Source: Escherichia phage vB_EcoP_SP7. Taken from it: a stretch of 39,305 bases of DNA. A program made the translations under genes and the position numbers. Positions 1,136 through 14,901 of the stretch are shown here, one piece after another; within the stretch, counting starts at the first letter, position 1, and the number at the start of each line of letters is the position of its first letter. Location: the sequence record MT682707.1; one strand, 5' to 3'. The notes beneath the pieces were generated by a model. The model was not told where the DNA came from. It saw nothing but the letters and a program-made list of their open reading frames with translations, and made no database searches.

Positions 1136-3817
1136 ATGAGCGTCATCTCTATTGACAAACACGACTTCTCTGATGTGTCGAACGCCATTGAGCCGTTTAA
1201 CCTGCTGGCTGACCATTACGGGCAAGACCTTGCAGTTAAACAGCTTCAGCTTGAGCATGAGGCATACACTGAAGGCGAGCGACGTTTCATCAAAAACCTT
1301 GAGCGCCAGACTGAGCGCGGGGAATTGGCAGACAATCAGGTAGCCAAGCCTCTCATGCAGACTCTGGTCCCTAAGATTGCGCAAGCCGTCAAGGAGTGGC
1401 ACGAAGGCGCGGACGGGAAGCTGTCAACTTCTCGCCCTAGCGTAGCGTTCACCATGTTGAGCACTGAAGAGAAGGCCGTCAAGGACCGCTCTCTACGCAT
1501 ATCCTGTGAGTCTGCTGCGGTTATCATACTGAAGGTCATCCTCTCCAAGCTGGTCAAGCCTGAAGGGATACCGATTACACCGATGGCCTCCGCGATAGGT
1601 CGCACACTTGAGGATGAAATCCGCTTCGGTCGCATCCGTGACAAGGAGCAGGAGCACTTCAAGAAGGCGATAGCTGAGAACCTGAACAAGCGCGCCGGGG
1701 CATCCTACAAAAAAGCCTACATGCAAGCGGTTGAGACATCCATGCTGGAGCAAGGACAGCTTGAAGATGCGTGGGGGACTTGGAGTCCGACCGAGGCGGT
1801 ACACGTTGGCATCAAGATGCTTGAGATTGTCATCCAGTCTACGCAACTGGTCGAGCTTAAGCGTTATGGTGCTGGCAATGCAGCGGCTGACGTTGAGATG
1901 GTCCACCTGTCAGACTTCTGGGTCAAGAAGATGGCACAACGTGGATTCAGCCTTGCGGGTATCGCACCAGTCTATCAGCCTTGCGTAGTTCCACCTAAGC
2001 CGTGGACGGGTGTCGTAGGCGGTGGTTACTGGGCTAAAGGTCGCAGACCGTTACCATTGATTCGCTTAGGGTCTAAGTCTGCGGTAGCACGTTACGAAGA
2101 CGTGTACATGCCTGAAGTCTATGACGCTGTGAACATCATCCAGAATACACCTTGGAAAGTTAACAAGAAGGTACTGGACGTGGTGAACATGGTCGAGAAG
2201 CTGAACAACACGCCTATTGATGACATCCCTCAGATGGAACCACTGAAGCCTGAGGACTACGCGGGTGAGACCGAAGAGGACCTCAAGGCATGGAAGAAGG
2301 CTGCTGCTGGTATCTACCGCCGAGAGAAGGCCCGGCAGTCACGCAGATTGTCACTGAGCTTTATCGTTAACCAAGCGAACAAGTTCTCTCAGTTCAAGGC
2401 CATCTGGTTCCCGTACAACATGGACTGGCGCGGTCGCGTCTACGCTGTGCCGATGTTCAACCCTCAGGGTAACGACATGCAGAAGGGTCTCCTGACTCTG
2501 GCAGTCGGCAAGCCCATTGGTGCTGATGGTTTCAAATGGCTGAAGGTCCACGGTGCAAACTGTGCTGGTGTCGATAAAGTCACCTTCGAGGAGCGCATCA
2601 AGTGGGTGGAAGACAACCACGACAACATCATGGCTGCTGCTAAGGCACCGATGGATAGCATTGAGTGGTGGGGCAAGTTAGACTCTCCGTTCTGCTTCCT
2701 TGCGTTCTGCTTCGAGTATGCTGGCGTAATGCACCACGGCCTGTCTTACTCCTGCTCTCTGCCCATAGCGTTCGATGGGTCCTGCTCCGGTATTCAGCAC
2801 TTTAGTGCTATGCTTCGTGACCACATCGGCGGACATGCAGTAAACCTGACGCCTTCCGGTAAGGTCCAAGACATCTACCGCATCGTGTCTGACCGCATTG
2901 AGGAGGAGCTTAAAGTCCTGCTGGTTAATGGCACGGACAACGAGGTGGTCACTCACGAGGACAAGAAAACTGGTGAGATTACCGAACGTCTCAAGCTGGG
3001 TACACGAGAGTTGGCCCGTCAGTGGCTGACTTACGGTATGTCACGCAAGGTCACTAAGCGTTCAGTCATGACTCTGGCCTATGGGTCGAAAGAGTACGGC
3101 TTCGCAGACCAAGTTTACGAGGACATCGTAATGCCTGCGATTGACTCAGGGTCTGGCGCTATGTTCACCGAACCAAGCCAAGCGTCCCGCTTCATGGCTA
3201 AGATGATTTGGGAAGCCGTGAGTGTGACCGTGGTTGCTGCTGTTGACGCGATGAAGTGGCTTCAAGGTGCTGCCAAGCTGCTGGCTGCTGAAGTGAAGGA
3301 CAAAAAGACTGGAGAAATCCTGAAGCCTTGCCTTCCGGTACACTGGGTCACACCTGATGGTTTCCCGGTCTGGCAGGAATACCGCAAGAAGGATACCACT
3401 CGTCTGAATCTGATGTTCTTAGGGTCATTCAACCTTCAGCCTACCGTCAACAAAGGCACGAAGAAGGAGTTGGATAAGCACAAGCAGGAGTCAGGTATTA
3501 GCCCGAACTTCGTCCACTCACAAGATGGTAGCCACCTACGCAAGACTGTAGTCCACACTCACCGCAAGTATGGCGTGATGTCATTCGCAGTGATTCACGA
3601 TAGCTTCGGGACCATCCCGGCTGACGCTGAGTATCTGTTCCGTGGTGTCCGTGAGACGATGGTCGAGACCTACCGAGACAACGATGTGCTGCTTGACTTC
3701 TACGAGCAGTTTGAATACCAACTTCATGAGAGCCAACGCGACAAGCTGCCTGAGCTTCCGAAGAAAGGTAAACTGAATATCGAAGACATCTTGTCTTCAG
3801 ACTTTGCATTCGCTTAA
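1136..3817 (+). CDS. DNA-directed RNA polymerase, single-subunit T7 type (gene 1), 893 aa
   Basis: Collinear with recalled T7 RNAP along its length (e.g. FNLLADHYG, CVVPPKPWTG, FPYNMDWRGRVYAV, HGANCAGVDK, SPFCFLAFCFEYAGV, LPIAFDGSCSGIQHFSAMLRD, SFAVIHDSFGT, C-terminal SDFAFA). Confidence 0.98.
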   Translation: MSVISIDKHDFSDVSNAIEPFNLLADHYGQDLAVKQLQLEHEAYTEGERRFIKNLERQTERGELADNQVAKPLMQTLVPKIAQAVKEWHEGADGKLSTSRPSVAFTMLSTEEKAVKDRSLRISCESAAVIILKVILSKLVKPEGIPITPMASAIGRTLEDEIRFGRIRDKEQEHFKKAIAENLNKRAGASYKKAYMQAVETSMLEQGQLEDAWGTWSPTEAVHVGIKMLEIVIQSTQLVELKRYGAGNAAADVEMVHLSDFWVKKMAQRGFSLAGIAPVYQPCVVPPKPWTGVVGGGYWAKGRRPLPLIRLGSKSAVARYEDVYMPEVYDAVNIIQNTPWKVNKKVLDVVNMVEKLNNTPIDDIPQMEPLKPEDYAGETEEDLKAWKKAAAGIYRREKARQSRRLSLSFIVNQANKFSQFKAIWFPYNMDWRGRVYAVPMFNPQGNDMQKGLLTLAVGKPIGADGFKWLKVHGANCAGVDKVTFEERIKWVEDNHDNIMAAAKAPMDSIEWWGKLDSPFCFLAFCFEYAGVMHHGLSYSCSLPIAFDGSCSGIQHFSAMLRDHIGGHAVNLTPSGKVQDIYRIVSDRIEEELKVLLVNGTDNEVVTHEDKKTGEITERLKLGTRELARQWLTYGMSRKVTKRSVMTLAYGSKEYGFADQVYEDIVMPAIDSGSGAMFTEPSQASRFMAKMIWEAVSVTVVAAVDAMKWLQGAAKLLAAEVKDKKTGEILKPCLPVHWVTPDGFPVWQEYRKKDTTRLNLMFLGSFNLQPTVNKGTKKELDKHKQESGISPNFVHSQDGSHLRKTVVHTHRKYGVMSFAVIHDSFGTIPADAEYLFRGVRETMVETYRDNDVLLDFYEQFEYQLHESQRDKLPELPKKGKLNIEDILSSDFAFA

Positions 3818-11898: not shown

Positions 11899-11940
11899 AG
11901 ACTCAAGGTCATTCACAGCGAGTGGCCTTTATGATTAGAC
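11899..11940 (+). promoter_or_regulatory. RNase III processing site upstream of the DNA polymerase gene
   Basis: AGACTCAAGGTCATTCACAGCGAGTGGCCTTTATGATTAGAC; same conserved element as at 4609 and 34856. Confidence 0.7.
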
Positions 11941-11957
11941 TAAACGGAGGATTAACC

Positions 11958-14129
11958 ATGTTTGACCTTAAGAGTATCTGGGGTTCTGACATCGAGACAA
12001 ACGGTCTCCTTGATACAGTCTCCCAGTTTCACTGTGGGGTACTGATTAACGCCGAGTCGAATGAGACCCTTAAGTATGGGGTAGCTCCGATGGTCGGTAT
12101 CATCGGTGGCTTCAAAGAGTATGTTCATAAAGTGGAAGAGATTGCCGCATCACCTGATGGTATGCTGGTATTCCACAACGGTATCAACTATGACGTCCCT
12201 GCTATTGACAAGCTGAAACGTCTGTACCTTGGGAAACGCTTTAACTTCCCGAAACACAAGATGATTGATACATTGGTGTTGGGACGCTTGATGTATCCCA
12301 ACATTAAGTTCTCAGACATGGGCGCGGTGAAAGCGGGTCGTCTACCACCTAAGATGATGGGACGTCAGTCTCTTGAGGCTTGGGGCTATCGTCTTGGTGA
12401 GATGAAAGGTGAGTACAAACACGATTACGTTGCCAAGTGCAAGGCTGAAGGTATCGAATATAAGGCTGGGGACGAATGGTTGTTCCCATCTCAGGAGATG
12501 CTGGACTATAACGTTCAAGACGTTGTGGTCACACTGGAGTTGTTCAAGAAGTTCCTGACTGACAAGTATTACTTCCAGTCTGAACAGTTCGCTTTCGACC
12601 AGATTTATGCGTTGCGTCTGGAACATGATGCTGCGTGGACCTGTGCGAAGATGGAACGTAATGGCTATCCAATGAACACCGAGATGGTCGAAGGCTTATA
12701 TCGTGAACTCACCGTCAAACGTGCAGAGCTGCTGGACAAGCTGCGCTCGACTTTCGGTAGCTGGTACGCACCAAAGGGAGGCAAAGAGTTCTTCAAGCAC
12801 CCCAGGACAGGCAAGGACCTTCCGAAGTATCCGCGAGTCGTGTATCCTAAAATAGGTGGCATCTTTAAGAAGCCGAAGAACAAAGCTCAACGCTTAGGTC
12901 TTGAACCTTGTGAGCGCGATACGCGAGACACGATGGAGGGAGCACCGTTCACGCCTATAACTTACGTTGAGTTTAATCCGGGAAGCGGAGACCACTTAGC
13001 GAAAGTCCTGATGGAGCGTGGATGGGAGCCTGTAGACTTCACTGACACCGGGAAACCTGTAGTCGATGACGAGACGTTAGAACACGTTAAGTTACAAGAT
13101 GAAGAGGCTCAGGCTTGCGTAGAGCTGGTCCGCGAGTATCTGGTAGTCCAGAAGCGCATCGGTCAGGCGGCTGAAGGTAAGAACGCATGGTTGAAACTTG
13201 TAGGTCCAGACGGACGTATGCACGGTTCAATCAACCCATGTGGTGCAGTAACCGGACGTGCGACCCATAGTACACCAAATATGGCTCAGGTCCCGGCTAA
13301 CGGTGCCCCATACGGTGAGACTTGCCGTGGTGCTTTCGGTGCAGCGTGGAACAAGACTAACGGTGAGCCAGACCCTTGGCTTCAGGTTGGTGTGGATGCT
13401 TCAGGTCTTGAGCTTCGCTGTCTGGGGAACAGAGCGGCTCCGTTTGACGGTGGTGAATACGCCAAGACTGTGGTCGAAGGTGACATCCACTGGGCCAACG
13501 CAGTAAACGCTGGGTTAGCACCTAACGTCCAACGCGATAAGTCTAACCACGACCATGATGCTTTCCGTAATAACGCTAAGACGTTCATCTATGCGTTCCT
13601 GTATGGTGCCGGGGCCGCGAAGATTGGACTGATAGTTGGAGGTGGTAAGAAGGAAGGTTCAGCTCTCATGAAGAAATTCATTGAGGGTACACCAGCCATA
13701 AAGGACCTCAGGGAAGCTGTGCAGAACACGCTCATCTCAGAGTCGAAGTGGGTAGATGGTGAGAACATCGTGAAGTGGAAACGTCGCTGGCTGAAAGGTC
13801 TGGATGGTCGCCGCATTCACATCCGGTCGCCACACTCAGCACTTAACGCATTACTTCAGGGCGATGGTGCGGTAGTCTGCAAGCACTGGATGGTACTTAC
13901 TGAGAAGAAACTTGAAGAGGCTGGTTACGGTAACGGATGGGACGGTGATTTTGCGCTAATGGCTTGGATTCACGATGAATTGCAGATAGCGTGTCGTACT
14001 CAGGAGATAGCAGAAGATGTCGTCCGTATTGCTCAAGAGGCGATGCGTGAGGTCGGACGCTTCTATAACTTCAAGTGTGAACTTGATACGGAGGGTAAGA
14101 TTGGACCAACGTGGAAAGAGTGTCATTGA
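11958..14129 (+). CDS. DNA polymerase (gene 5), family A
   Basis: 3'-5' exonuclease motif DIETNGL and polymerase motifs (VTGRATHS, RDKSNHDHDAFRNNAKTFIYAFLYGAG, WIHDELQ) match recalled T7 DNAP. ATG 11958 has a GGAGG RBS; the track's 11922 start overlaps the RNase III site. Confidence 0.97.
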   Translation: MFDLKSIWGSDIETNGLLDTVSQFHCGVLINAESNETLKYGVAPMVGIIGGFKEYVHKVEEIAASPDGMLVFHNGINYDVPAIDKLKRLYLGKRFNFPKHKMIDTLVLGRLMYPNIKFSDMGAVKAGRLPPKMMGRQSLEAWGYRLGEMKGEYKHDYVAKCKAEGIEYKAGDEWLFPSQEMLDYNVQDVVVTLELFKKFLTDKYYFQSEQFAFDQIYALRLEHDAAWTCAKMERNGYPMNTEMVEGLYRELTVKRAELLDKLRSTFGSWYAPKGGKEFFKHPRTGKDLPKYPRVVYPKIGGIFKKPKNKAQRLGLEPCERDTRDTMEGAPFTPITYVEFNPGSGDHLAKVLMERGWEPVDFTDTGKPVVDDETLEHVKLQDEEAQACVELVREYLVVQKRIGQAAEGKNAWLKLVGPDGRMHGSINPCGAVTGRATHSTPNMAQVPANGAPYGETCRGAFGAAWNKTNGEPDPWLQVGVDASGLELRCLGNRAAPFDGGEYAKTVVEGDIHWANAVNAGLAPNVQRDKSNHDHDAFRNNAKTFIYAFLYGAGAAKIGLIVGGGKKEGSALMKKFIEGTPAIKDLREAVQNTLISESKWVDGENIVKWKRRWLKGLDGRRIHIRSPHSALNALLQGDGAVVCKHWMVLTEKKLEEAGYGNGWDGDFALMAWIHDELQIACRTQEIAEDVVRIAQEAMREVGRFYNFKCELDTEGKIGPTWKECH

Positions 14130-14171
14130 CCCTCGAACCCAGACCCTACGCTTCCACACCATGCCTACCGG

Positions 14172-14441
14172 ATGTATCGTCTGCGTGTCCACAAGAGGAA
14201 CCAAGATGGGTACTTCCGGTACTCCATGGGAAGCTACAGGAAGGGTAACAAGTTCGCCTTCATGTTCCACCGATGGGTGTGGGAGCAGAAGCGTGGACCT
14301 ATACCAGATGGCTATGAGATAGACCATTTGTGCTTGAACCGTGGGTGCTGCAACATAGAGCACCTACAGTGTATTCCAAAGCGCGAACACGTCATTAAGA
14401 CGAACCGCGAGCGCAAACTTGTTAAGAAGGAGTGTCACTAA
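14172..14441 (+). CDS. HNH homing endonuclease
   Basis: HNH motif region GYEIDHLCLNRGCCNIEHLQCIPKREH; located immediately after gene 5, where T7 has no such gene. Confidence 0.8.
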   Translation: MYRLRVHKRNQDGYFRYSMGSYRKGNKFAFMFHRWVWEQKRGPIPDGYEIDHLCLNRGCCNIEHLQCIPKREHVIKTNRERKLVKKECH

Positions 14442-14629
14442 TGGGTCATTATGACAGCGCATACGAAGAGTTAGCTGAAGAAACACGCAGGCGTGAAGAG
14501 CTACGTCAGTCGCGGTGCGAACATCCAGATTGGGTACTTGTCTACTGCACGCAGGATGGCAAGCCCAAAGTAACTCAGTGCAGACTGTGTGGAAAGACCA
14601 ATCACATTGAATCCCAAGGAGAAATCTAA
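14441..14629 (+). CDS. Hypothetical small Cys-containing protein (62 aa), possible zinc ribbon
   Basis: AAGGAG RBS then ATG 14441; cysteines CEH...YC...CRLCGK. Confidence 0.45.
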   Translation: MGHYDSAYEELAEETRRREELRQSRCEHPDWVLVYCTQDGKPKVTQCRLCGKTNHIESQGEI

Positions 14630-14901
14630 TGGCTATTACTAAACGCCTTACCTGTAAGTTTGACATGAAGATTATCTTTACGTCTGAGGACGTGGAGTCA
14701 TACGCTCTTAATATGGTGGAGCTTACCAAGGGTTATGTCTCCGGTGAGAAACAGGATGGCATGACACGGAAGCTGGTAGAGACTGCTATAGAGCATGGGG
14801 TCGAAGCTGCCATTGAGCTGCACCTGAAGTCTATTCTGTCGTCCAATCTGAAAGACGCGCTGCAAGAGGTCTACAACATCAGCACGAGGTTCAAGCAATG
14901 A
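14629..14901 (+). CDS. gp5.5-like protein (candidate H-NS-binding host takeover factor)
   Basis: N-terminus MAITKR... and position resemble recalled T7 gp5.5; similarity is weak. Confidence 0.45.
   Translation: MAITKRLTCKFDMKIIFTSEDVESYALNMVELTKGYVSGEKQDGMTRKLVETAIEHGVEAAIELHLKSILSSNLKDALQEVYNISTRFKQ

What the first reader, a model, noticed from the sequence alone, without database searches (positions are those of the whole stretch)
14127..14441. HNH homing endonuclease after the DNA polymerase gene; both ORFs end with KECH
The DNAP ends ...TWKECH* (AAAGAGTGTCATTGA) and the downstream HNH ORF ends ...VKKECH* (AAGGAGTGTCACTAA). The near-identical 3' ends may be a footprint of endonuclease insertion or repair at the end of gene 5, the kind of site homing endonucleases commonly target. 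The HNH motif itself (EIDHLCLNRGCCNIEH...H) is clear.
Basis: partly seen in the sequence, partly recalled or inferred. Interest (0 to 1): 0.55.

Follow-up and report, generated by a model that had tools for sequence, protein, structure and literature searches.

The report
Homing-endonuclease insertion scar after DNA polymerase

Summary
AAAGAGTGTCATTGA (14115-14129, end of the polymerase gene, gene 5) and AAGGAGTGTCACTAA (14427-14441, end of the HNH ORF) are the only two matches to that pattern in the window, with 0 expected by chance.

About 20 related Kayfunavirus loci lack the nuclease. In most of them gene 5 ends ...ACGTGG AAG GAG TGT CAC TAATGG, identical to the right-hand copy. The right copy is therefore the ancestral end of gene 5. 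It was kept because it holds the ribosome-binding site (AAGGAG) and the overlapping TAATG start of the next gene. The left copy belongs to a roughly 240-bp polymerase tail (13892-14129) that travels with the nuclease gene.

The HNH protein is 84% identical to T3 gp5.3. T3 gp5.3 ends at ...KLVKK, so ECH is polymerase-derived. From the literature on T3 gp5.3, the expected cut site is the group I intron insertion site in polymerase motif C (13973|13974), not the gene's end.

Intact relatives start the HNH ORF at a TTG inside gene 5 (14101). This window carries a 1-nt deletion at 14189/14190 that splits the ORF, so the gene is probably dead or mis-sequenced.

Verdict: a new member of a known kind, of modest interest.

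The parts
11958..14129 (+). Gene 5, T7-type family A DNA polymerase. The ORF is open from GTG 11922. The likely start is ATG 11958, giving 723 aa as in relatives.
   Evidence: PF00476, 131.9 bits. Relatives' CDS is 2172 nt.
13892..14129 (+). Polymerase tail haplotype linked to the nuclease gene, read as a co-conversion block. It includes the putative resistant target and the embedded start signals.
   Evidence: 94-100% identical among most HEG-bearing loci (84-92% in L009 and L011) and 68-80% to empty alleles, while identity upstream is unrelated to HEG status. Against HEG-less SEA1f: 56/238 mismatches here, compared with 7/615 at 13015-13629.
13962..13985 (+). Motif C codons (A-W-I-H-D-E-L-Q), the predicted target region of the T3-type enzyme. 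The intron insertion site of relatives falls between 13973 and 13974. The ATT (Ile) codon at 13968-13970 replaces the GTN (Val) of empty alleles.
   Evidence: Intron mapped in CLB_P1, WX2 and L026. Rfam Intron_gpI E = 2e-7, below the gathering score. No HNH-bearing locus has WVHDE. The cleavage site itself comes from the literature, not from a test here.
14090..14103 (+). GGAGGG (14090-14095) plus TTG (14101-14103): the inferred translation start of the nuclease ORF, embedded in the +1 frame of gene 5.
   Evidence: MopsHU1 annotates this start. Homology to T3 gp5.3 begins upstream of the first ATG. There is no ATG/GTG/TTG between it and the conserved TLRFH. The same leader LDQRGK..ID is used by an unrelated PD-(D/E)XK ORF in L006, L007 and L011. 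Empty alleles read ACCGAAGG instead of ACGGAGGG.
14115..14129 (+). Left copy: the working end of gene 5 (K-E-C-H-stop), differing from the ancestral end at 3 of 15 positions (2 synonymous changes plus TAA to TGA).
14101..14441 (+). HNH homing endonuclease gene, orthologue of T3 gene 5.3, disrupted here by a 1-nt deletion at 14189/14190. The N-terminal piece is in frame 14101..14322. The C-terminal ORF is 14172..14441, in the same frame as gene 5.
14262..14393 (+). HNH_3 catalytic domain (MFHRWVWEQKRGPIPDGYEIDHLCLNRGCCNIEHLQCIPKREHV).
14427..14443 (+). Right copy: relic of the recipient's gene 5 terminus (AAG GAG TGT CAC TAA). It now serves as the HNH tail and stop, as the Shine-Dalgarno AAGGAG, and as the overlapping ATG (14441-14443) of the next gene.
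   Evidence: Identical to the gene 5 end of empty relatives. T3 gp5.3 lacks ECH.
14441..14629 (+). Small Cys-rich ORF (62 aa, CX..C...CxxC) translationally coupled to the relic. It is a separate variable cassette.
   Evidence: Present in the window, SEA1f and TH20. Absent from MopsHU1, Baskent and GW1. No Pfam family.

Best explanation
The window is a Kayfunavirus (T7-like) genome. It carries a free-standing HNH homing endonuclease gene (HEG), orthologous to T3 gene 5.3, wedged between gene 5 (DNA polymerase) and the next gene.

Mechanism, inferred from the T3 enzyme: the nuclease cuts HEG-less polymerase alleles at the motif C / intron insertion site (W-V-H|D-E, equivalent to 13973|13974). 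The break is resected and repaired from an HEG-bearing co-infecting genome. This copies a resistant polymerase tail (13892-14129, W-I-H-D-E, ending AAA GAG TGT CAT TGA) together with the HEG.

The right end of the copied tract lies in the 7-nt GAAGGAG shared by the donor's HEG 3' end and the recipient's last polymerase codons. The recipient's own GAG TGT CAC TAA therefore survives downstream of the HEG. It is retained because it supplies the Shine-Dalgarno sequence and the TAATG stop/start overlap for the next gene. The HEG lost its own stop codon and reads into this relic, which is why it ends KECH like the polymerase.

Shown: the relic's identity, the haplotype block, orthology to T3 gp5.3, and the frameshift. 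Inferred: the cleavage position, the TTG start, and the exact crossover. In this genome the HEG is split by a 1-nt deletion, so it is most likely a decaying copy, unless the deletion is a sequencing error.
For: (1) Most empty-site relatives end gene 5 with ACGTGG AAG GAG TGT CAC TAATGG. This is 18/18 identical to 14427-14444 and continues into the same downstream genes.

(2) T3 gp5.3 aligns end to end with residues 13-110 of the intact Kayfunavirus HNH (84% identity) and stops at KLVKK. ECH is extra. Orthologues in other contexts have other tails: KK*, K*, KKEKTNGYY*, KREKANGYY*, KKE*, KECR*.

(3) L095/L027 carry ...AAGAAGGAG|AAGACTAATGG. Crossing this with an empty allele ...TGGAAGGAG|TGTCACTAATGG inside GAAGGAG yields exactly the window's junction.

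(4) Before/after pair: HEG-less SEA1f is 98.9% identical to the window at 13015-13629 and in the 180 nt after the relic, but only 76.5% identical at 13892-14129. HEG-bearing loci on different upstream backgrounds share that block at 94-100% in most cases.

(5) Introns of CLB_P1, WX2 and L026 interrupt W-V-H|D-E inside that block. Reviews state that the T3-type free-standing enzyme cleaves at the intron insertion site (PMC3984707, PMC10448857), and that free-standing HEGs cut at a distance from themselves and co-convert the flanks (PMC2988022).

(6) None of about 14 unique HNH-bearing loci has WVHDE. The 17 intron-free HEG-less loci with WVHDE, and the intron hosts, do.

(7) The HEG shows signs of decay: a 1-nt deletion here and an independent 55-nt deletion in TH20.
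Against: No cleavage data exist for this enzyme. The cut site is extrapolated from T3 gp5.3, and the primary paper (Bonocora & Shub 2009) could not be read here.

WIHDE is also the normal sequence of many HEG-less phages of other genera (54 loci). The Ile/Val association is therefore correlative and confounded by shared descent of the block.

The GGAGGG/TTG start is inferred, not shown. Its correlation with HEG presence is a single haplotype, not independent events.

The direction of the original event cannot be dated. The crossover point could equally be a microhomology join with a T3-type donor (AAGAA|ATAA x TGGAA|GGAG).
Confidence: 0.78

Rival explanations
1. The nuclease targets the very end of gene 5 (the insertion point TGG|AAGGAGTGTCAC). 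The three changes in the left copy (AAA, CAT, TGA) are the immunity mutations.
For: The insertion splits the empty-site sequence, and the left copy differs at 3 of 15 positions. Many intron- or intein-encoded enzymes cut at their insertion point.
Against: The orthologous T3 enzyme is reported to cut at the intron insertion site (PMC3984707, PMC10448857), about 155 nt upstream. Free-standing HEGs typically cut away from themselves (PMC2988022). The HEG-linked divergent block extends 235 nt upstream and brackets motif C. The same left copy is found with an unrelated PD-(D/E)XK gene. T3 itself keeps GAATGTCACTAA.
Confidence: 0.1
2. Reverse direction: the HEG-bearing arrangement with two direct repeats is ancestral, and 'empty' alleles arose by deletion between the repeats.
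For: 12/15-nt direct repeats flanking 312 nt could mediate deletion. HEG loss is part of the known HEG life cycle.
Against: Empty alleles differ from HEG-bearing ones by about 23% across the last 238 nt of gene 5, not just by the deletion. Outgroups (T3, L028, T7) show ..GA(A/G)TGTCACTAA or a similar sequence as the native gene 5 end. Empty alleles occur on many different backgrounds.
Confidence: 0.06
3. Coincidence or convergence: KECH on the HNH is unrelated to the polymerase, and arose because the next gene's ribosome-binding site constrains the sequence.
For: AAGGAG-N8-ATG is a generic T7-like start region. Similar motifs occur at 14616 and 28119.
Against: The match to the polymerase end of empty relatives is exact over 18 nt, including TGTCAC, which no generic start region requires. 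The pattern is expected 0 times by chance. Other HNH alleles use different spacers.
Confidence: 0.02
4. The KECH tail is functional on the nuclease, for example mimicking the polymerase C-terminus. A variant specific to this window: UGA-C read-through makes a polymerase-HNH fusion, because here the two ORFs are in the same frame.
For: In this window the 312-nt spacing puts the HNH catalytic part in frame with gene 5 across a single TGA followed by C.
Against: Intact relatives have a 313-nt spacing, so the HNH is in another frame. The tails vary freely among orthologues, including KECR and KKE*. A fusion would lack the CxxC segment.
Confidence: 0.03

Closest known systems
Phage T3 gene 5.3 product (free-standing HNH homing endonuclease F-TslI; Bonocora & Shub 2009, Curr Biol 19:223. 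Known to me from its abstract and cited in PMC3984707 and PMC10448857.)
   Same: 84% amino-acid identity over the whole T3 protein. Same locus between gene 5 and gene 5.5. Sporadic distribution among close relatives. Host polymerase carries W-I-H-D-E at the intron insertion site.
   Different: T3's gene is a separate cistron with its own SD, ATG and TAA stop, placed after the gene 5 stop. In the Kayfunavirus arrangement the ORF starts at a TTG inside gene 5, has lost its own stop, and ends in a relic of gene 5's last codons. The window copy is also frameshifted.
I-TslI, the intron-encoded HNH endonuclease in gene 5 of W31/PhiI, K1F and CLB_P1
   Same: Homologous HNH core (about 47-58% identity). 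Same target gene. The intron sits in motif C, 155 nt upstream of the gene 5 stop.
   Different: It is intron-borne and about 45 aa longer at the C-terminus. The window's gene 5 is uninterrupted.
Phage T7 gene 5.3 (PD-(D/E)XK, Pfam PDDEXK_5)
   Same: Occupies the same slot after gene 5. Kayfunavirus loci L006, L007 and L011 carry a homologue behind the same polymerase tail and the same TTG leader as the window's HNH.
   Different: Unrelated fold and sequence to the window's HNH.
T4 seg/mob free-standing endonucleases (intronless homing, marker exclusion)
   Same: The cleavage site is separated from the endonuclease gene. Flanking markers are co-converted, producing mosaic blocks (PMC2988022).
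   Different: Different nuclease families and targets. No reported reuse of the target gene's displaced terminal codons as the HEG's own tail.
Fungal mitochondrial HEG insertions that displace and duplicate a host gene end (own knowledge: Allomyces atp6, Paquin et al. 1994; Ophiostoma rps3, Sethuraman et al. 2009. See also the partial gene duplication in PMC8393795.)
   Same: The mobile ORF arrives with its own copy of the host gene's terminus, leaving the resident terminus as a downstream relic.
   Different: Those cases involve LAGLIDADG or GIY-YIG genes in organelles, with longer duplicated segments. Here the relic is only 12-15 nt and persists as a translation signal.

Membership tests
HNH (His-Me finger) endonuclease, Pfam HNH_3 | Significant match to the HNH_3 profile, with the D-H ... 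N ... H catalytic residues | tested here: met
   70.2 bits against a cut-off of 24.8. The motif EIDHLCLNRGCCNIEHL..EH is present.
HNH (His-Me finger) endonuclease, Pfam HNH_3 | Intact reading frame that includes the N-terminal CxxC segment conserved in orthologues | tested here: not met
   a 1-nt deletion at 14189/14190 relative to 6 intact relatives. CIVC is left in another frame.
T3 gp5.3 / F-TslI-type free-standing homing endonuclease | Close orthology to T3 gp5.3 | tested here: met
   84.7% by tblastn; 82/98 identical, covering T3 residues 4-101.
T3 gp5.3 / F-TslI-type free-standing homing endonuclease | Located next to gene 5 and present or absent among otherwise near-identical genomes | tested here: met
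   SEA1f is 98.9% identical in the flanks but lacks the gene.
T3 gp5.3 / F-TslI-type free-standing homing endonuclease | Flanking co-conversion block and a variant target sequence in the carrier genome | tested here: met
   Block 13892-14129; WIHDE or FVHDE in all HNH carriers, WVHDE in empty Kayfunavirus alleles. The evidence is correlative.
T3 gp5.3 / F-TslI-type free-standing homing endonuclease | Site-specific cleavage of HEG-less gene 5 at the intron insertion site, and super-Mendelian inheritance in crosses | not testable with these tools
   Requires enzyme assays and phage crosses. The claim rests on the literature for T3 (PMC3984707, PMC10448857).
Intron-encoded endonuclease (I-TslI type) | ORF lies inside a group I intron that interrupts gene 5 | tested here: not met
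   Gene 5 is one continuous ORF. No Rfam hit in the window.
Intein-associated endonuclease | In-frame insertion without stop codons, flanked by splicing (Hint) motifs | tested here: not met
   A TGA stop separates the ORFs. Intact relatives are in another frame. Only HNH_3 and zf-His_Me_endon domains were found.

The most novel reading that the evidence does not exclude
The last ~240 bp of Kayfunavirus gene 5 may act as a standard 'socket' for homing endonuclease genes. It would consist of a cleavage-resistant polymerase tail with a ribosome-binding site and TTG start hidden in its +1 frame, closed on the right by the relic GGAGT..CACTAATGG that restarts the next gene. Two unrelated nucleases (T3-type HNH and T7-type PD-(D/E)XK) plug into the same socket without start signals of their own, and in some alleles without their own stop. 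They would be exchanged as cassettes while the socket spreads by co-conversion.
Probability: 0.4. Interest if true: 0.45.

Novelty: new member of a known kind. Interest (0 to 1): 0.3.

Why it matters
This gives a nucleotide-level before/after picture of a homing event in T7-like phages. It shows where the conversion tract starts (about 13892) and where it ends (inside a 7-nt Shine-Dalgarno match). It shows how an essential gene's last codons are duplicated so that neither the polymerase nor the downstream gene's translation signals are damaged.

It also explains a local spike of polymerase divergence that would otherwise distort phylogenies built on gene 5. It flags that automated annotation misses the real, non-ATG, overlapping start of this HEG. 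Conceptually it adds nothing beyond established intronless homing.

Tried and rejected
- Intein or intron reading: rejected. There is a stop codon between the ORFs, gene 5 is continuous, and Rfam gives no hit in the window.
- Programmed -1 frameshift or transcriptional slippage to repair the 1-nt deletion: rejected. There is no slippery heptamer or long homopolymer at 14180-14200 (read).
- UGA read-through fusion: kept only as a remote rival.
- My initial assumption that T7 gp5.3 is the homologue: wrong. T7 gp5.3 is a PD-(D/E)XK protein with no similarity to this HNH.
- Rfam at gathering threshold did not detect the introns of CLB_P1, WX2 or L026. A permissive search gave Intron_gpI at 35.6 bits, below the cut-off of 50, with E = 2e-7.
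- The primary papers (PMC2856452, PMC529087) are not held, so the T3 cleavage site rests on reviews and my memory of the abstract.
- The Ile/Val 'immunity' idea was weakened by finding WIHDE in 54 HEG-less loci of other genera.
- The large protein-database, structure-prediction and fold-search tools were not used, because the DNA comparisons were decisive.
Full report
**1. What is in the sequence**

The window is a T7-like phage of the genus Kayfunavirus. The best DNA matches are Kayfunavirus genomes at about 95% identity. Gene 5 (family A DNA polymerase, PF00476) is an uninterrupted ORF ending TGG AAA GAG TGT CAT TGA at 14129. Relatives have a 2172-nt gene, which places the likely start at ATG 11958 rather than GTG 11922.

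Downstream, an ORF with a clear HNH_3 domain (70.2 bits) ends AAG AAG GAG TGT CAC TAA at 14441. The pattern AARGARTGYCAYTRA occurs only at 14115-14129 and 14427-14441, with none found in 100 shuffles. The stated start (14127) is the polymerase stop codon, not a start.

**2. The right copy is the ancestral polymerase end**

I aligned the window with relatives that lack the nuclease: Baskent_phicoli_1, GW1 and SEA1f from GenBank, plus about 17 IMG/VR loci. In most of them gene 5 ends ...GGACCAACGTGG AAG GAG TGT CAC TAATGG, and the next gene starts at that overlapping ATG. This is 18/18 identical to window 14427-14444.

In HNH-bearing genomes the same string lies after the HNH. The polymerase instead ends with a version differing at 3 of 15 positions (AAA GAG TGY CAT TGA). 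The spacing between copies is 312 nt here and 313 nt in intact relatives.

AAGGAG is the Shine-Dalgarno sequence, 8 nt upstream of the next gene's ATG. That explains why the relic has to stay where it is.

**3. Identity of the nuclease**

A tblastn search with the intact orthologue finds T3 gene 5.3 at about 85% identity. BLASTP gives 82/98 identical, covering T3 residues 4-101, which is up to the last residue of the T3 protein...KLVKK. In T3 the gene has its own SD, ATG and TAA, followed by the gene 5.5 start region. E-C-H therefore lies beyond the native C-terminus.

Orthologues in other contexts end KK*, K*, KKEKTNGYY*, KREKANGYY*, KKE* or KECR*. The tail depends on the right-hand junction and is not conserved as protein.

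One allele type (L027/L095) reads ...AAGAAGGAG AAGAC TAATGG. A conversion tract ending within the shared GAAGGAG of that donor and an empty recipient (...TGGAAGGAG TGTCAC TAATGG) gives exactly the window's junction. A microhomology join with a T3-type donor is an equally possible origin.

**4. Where the enzyme probably cuts**

I could not open Bonocora & Shub 2009. From its abstract (my own knowledge), and from reviews that cite it, the T3 free-standing enzyme and the intron-encoded I-TslI cleave intronless polymerase genes at the intron insertion site (PMC3984707; PMC10448857). Free-standing enzymes generally cut at a distance from their own gene and co-convert the interval (PMC2988022).

Intron-bearing relatives (CLB_P1, WX2, L026) place the insertion site between CAT and GAT of W-V-H|D-E. 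This is window 13973|13974, 128 nt upstream of the HNH start and 155 nt upstream of the gene 5 stop. Rfam gives Intron_gpI E = 2e-7 there, but below the gathering score.

**5. Evidence for a co-converted block**

In the last 238 nt of gene 5 (13892-14129), most HEG-bearing loci are 94-100% identical to the window (L009 and L011: 84-92%). Empty alleles are 68-80% identical. Upstream, similarity is unrelated to HEG status.

The clearest case is HEG-less SEA1f compared with the window:

| Region | Mismatches |
|---|---|
| 13015-13629 | 7/615 |
| 13892-14129 | 56/238 |
| First 180 nt after the relic | 2/180 |

The window therefore looks like a SEA1f-like genome into which a tract running from about 13892 to about 14430 was copied.

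The block spans motif C and changes GTN (Val) to ATT (Ile), 4-6 nt upstream of the insertion site. None of about 14 unique HNH-bearing loci has WVHDE; they have WIHDE or, in the ZG49-like group, FVHDE. Empty Kayfunavirus alleles and the intron hosts have WVHDE.

Two caveats apply. WIHDE is also normal in 54 HEG-less loci of other genera. And the Kayfunavirus carriers share the block by descent, so this is supporting evidence, not proof. L008 is an HEG-less recombinant carrying only the upstream, WIHDE half of the block. That is what an aborted or partial conversion would leave.

**6. Start of the gene and a shared slot**

Homology to T3 gp5.3 begins at ...TLRFH, upstream of the first ATG (14161). 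No ATG, GTG or TTG lies between that point and TTG 14101, which sits 5 nt after GGAGGG (14090-14095) inside gene 5. MopsHU1 is annotated from this TTG.

Three IMG/VR loci (L006, L007, L011) have the same polymerase tail and the same leader LDQRGK..ID, followed by an unrelated PD-(D/E)XK ORF (PF11645, E = 6e-11). That ORF is homologous to T7 gene 5.3. It also lacks a start codon of its own and ends at GGAGTAACACTAATGG or a variant.

Empty alleles read ACCGAAGG where carriers read ACGGAGGG. This suggests, but does not prove, a common embedded translation start used by two HEG families.

**7. State of the gene in this window**

Six of the seven class B relatives examined read GTGTC[C/T]CACAAG. 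The window reads GTGTC-CACAAG (14189/14190). This shifts the frame, so the TTG-initiated product terminates at 14322. The HNH domain remains only in an 89-codon ATG ORF (14172-14441) that lacks the CIVC segment and has no obvious SD.

TH20, the closest relative in this region, has an independent 55-nt deletion in the same gene. Decay of a fixed HEG is the expected life cycle (PMC3984707). A sequencing error in a CCC run cannot be excluded.

By accident, the deletion puts the HNH part in frame with gene 5 across TGA-C. I treat read-through as a remote possibility only.

**8. Verdict**

The idea that the gene 5 terminus is the target is probably wrong.

The element is an orthologue of a characterised homing endonuclease, in a slightly different, more compact arrangement: an overlapping start, a lost stop, and a relic tail. 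It is a new member of a known kind. Its interest is modest and lies mainly in its value as a clean natural example of tract ends in intronless homing.

Noticed in passing
window 14441-14629: A 62-aa Cys-rich ORF (MGHYDSAYEE...CEHPDW...CRLCGK) lies between the HNH and the gp5.5-like gene. It is present in the window, SEA1f and TH20, and absent from MopsHU1, Baskent, GW1 and others. It ends AAGGAGAAATCTAATGG, the same SD-spacer-TAATG design as the relic, so cassettes at this junction all carry the next gene's start signal. No Pfam family.
   Followed up: partly
L006, L007, L011 (about 3100-3520 in each locus): A T7 gene 5.3-like PD-(D/E)XK (PDDEXK_5) ORF occupies the same slot behind the same polymerase tail, and shares the TTG leader with the HNH. 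Its right junction, GGAGTAACACTAATGG, looks like the relic with TGT changed to TAA.
   Followed up: partly
L008 (IMGVR_UViG_2757321099_000001), last 240 nt of gene 5: An HEG-less recombinant. It carries the carrier-type haplotype (including WIHDE) from about 13893 to about 14050 equivalents, then the empty-type haplotype. It may be the product of a conversion tract that stopped before the HEG.
   Followed up: partly
L088 (Escherichia virus TH20, MT446394.1), HNH region: An independent 55-nt deletion removes the ATG...CxxC part of the same HNH gene. This is a second example of decay in the window's closest relative. The record is flagged UNVERIFIED.
   Followed up: partly
window 11922-11957: The polymerase ORF is open from GTG 11922, but relatives' annotated genes are 2172 nt. 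This implies the real start is ATG 11958 (MFDLKSIW...).
   Followed up: partly
L099-L109 (IMG/VR), L086, L087: Intron-encoded homologues of the HNH are about 45 aa longer, with a conserved C-terminal extension (...YW..TG..LA.LF.VSF..AC.WIREWK), possibly a DNA-binding module. The free-standing T3/Kayfunavirus proteins lack it.
   Followed up: no
L087 2406-3003; also L086 and L026: The gene 5 group I introns of these phages score below Rfam's gathering threshold (35.6 bits against 50) and are missed by a default Rfam scan.
   Followed up: yes
window about 14610-14900, compared with L004 (SEA1f): Right after the shared small ORF, the gp5.5-like gene is highly divergent between the window and SEA1f (about 28-35 mismatches per 60 nt), then similarity returns. 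This is another mosaic boundary at a TAATG junction.
   Followed up: no
L001 (MopsHU1) 1428-1443; L089 (T147P5): The relic drifts when it serves as an HNH tail: KECR* (CAC to CGC) in MopsHU1, and GAG TAA (an early stop) in T147P5. This is consistent with no protein-level constraint on ECH.
   Followed up: yes
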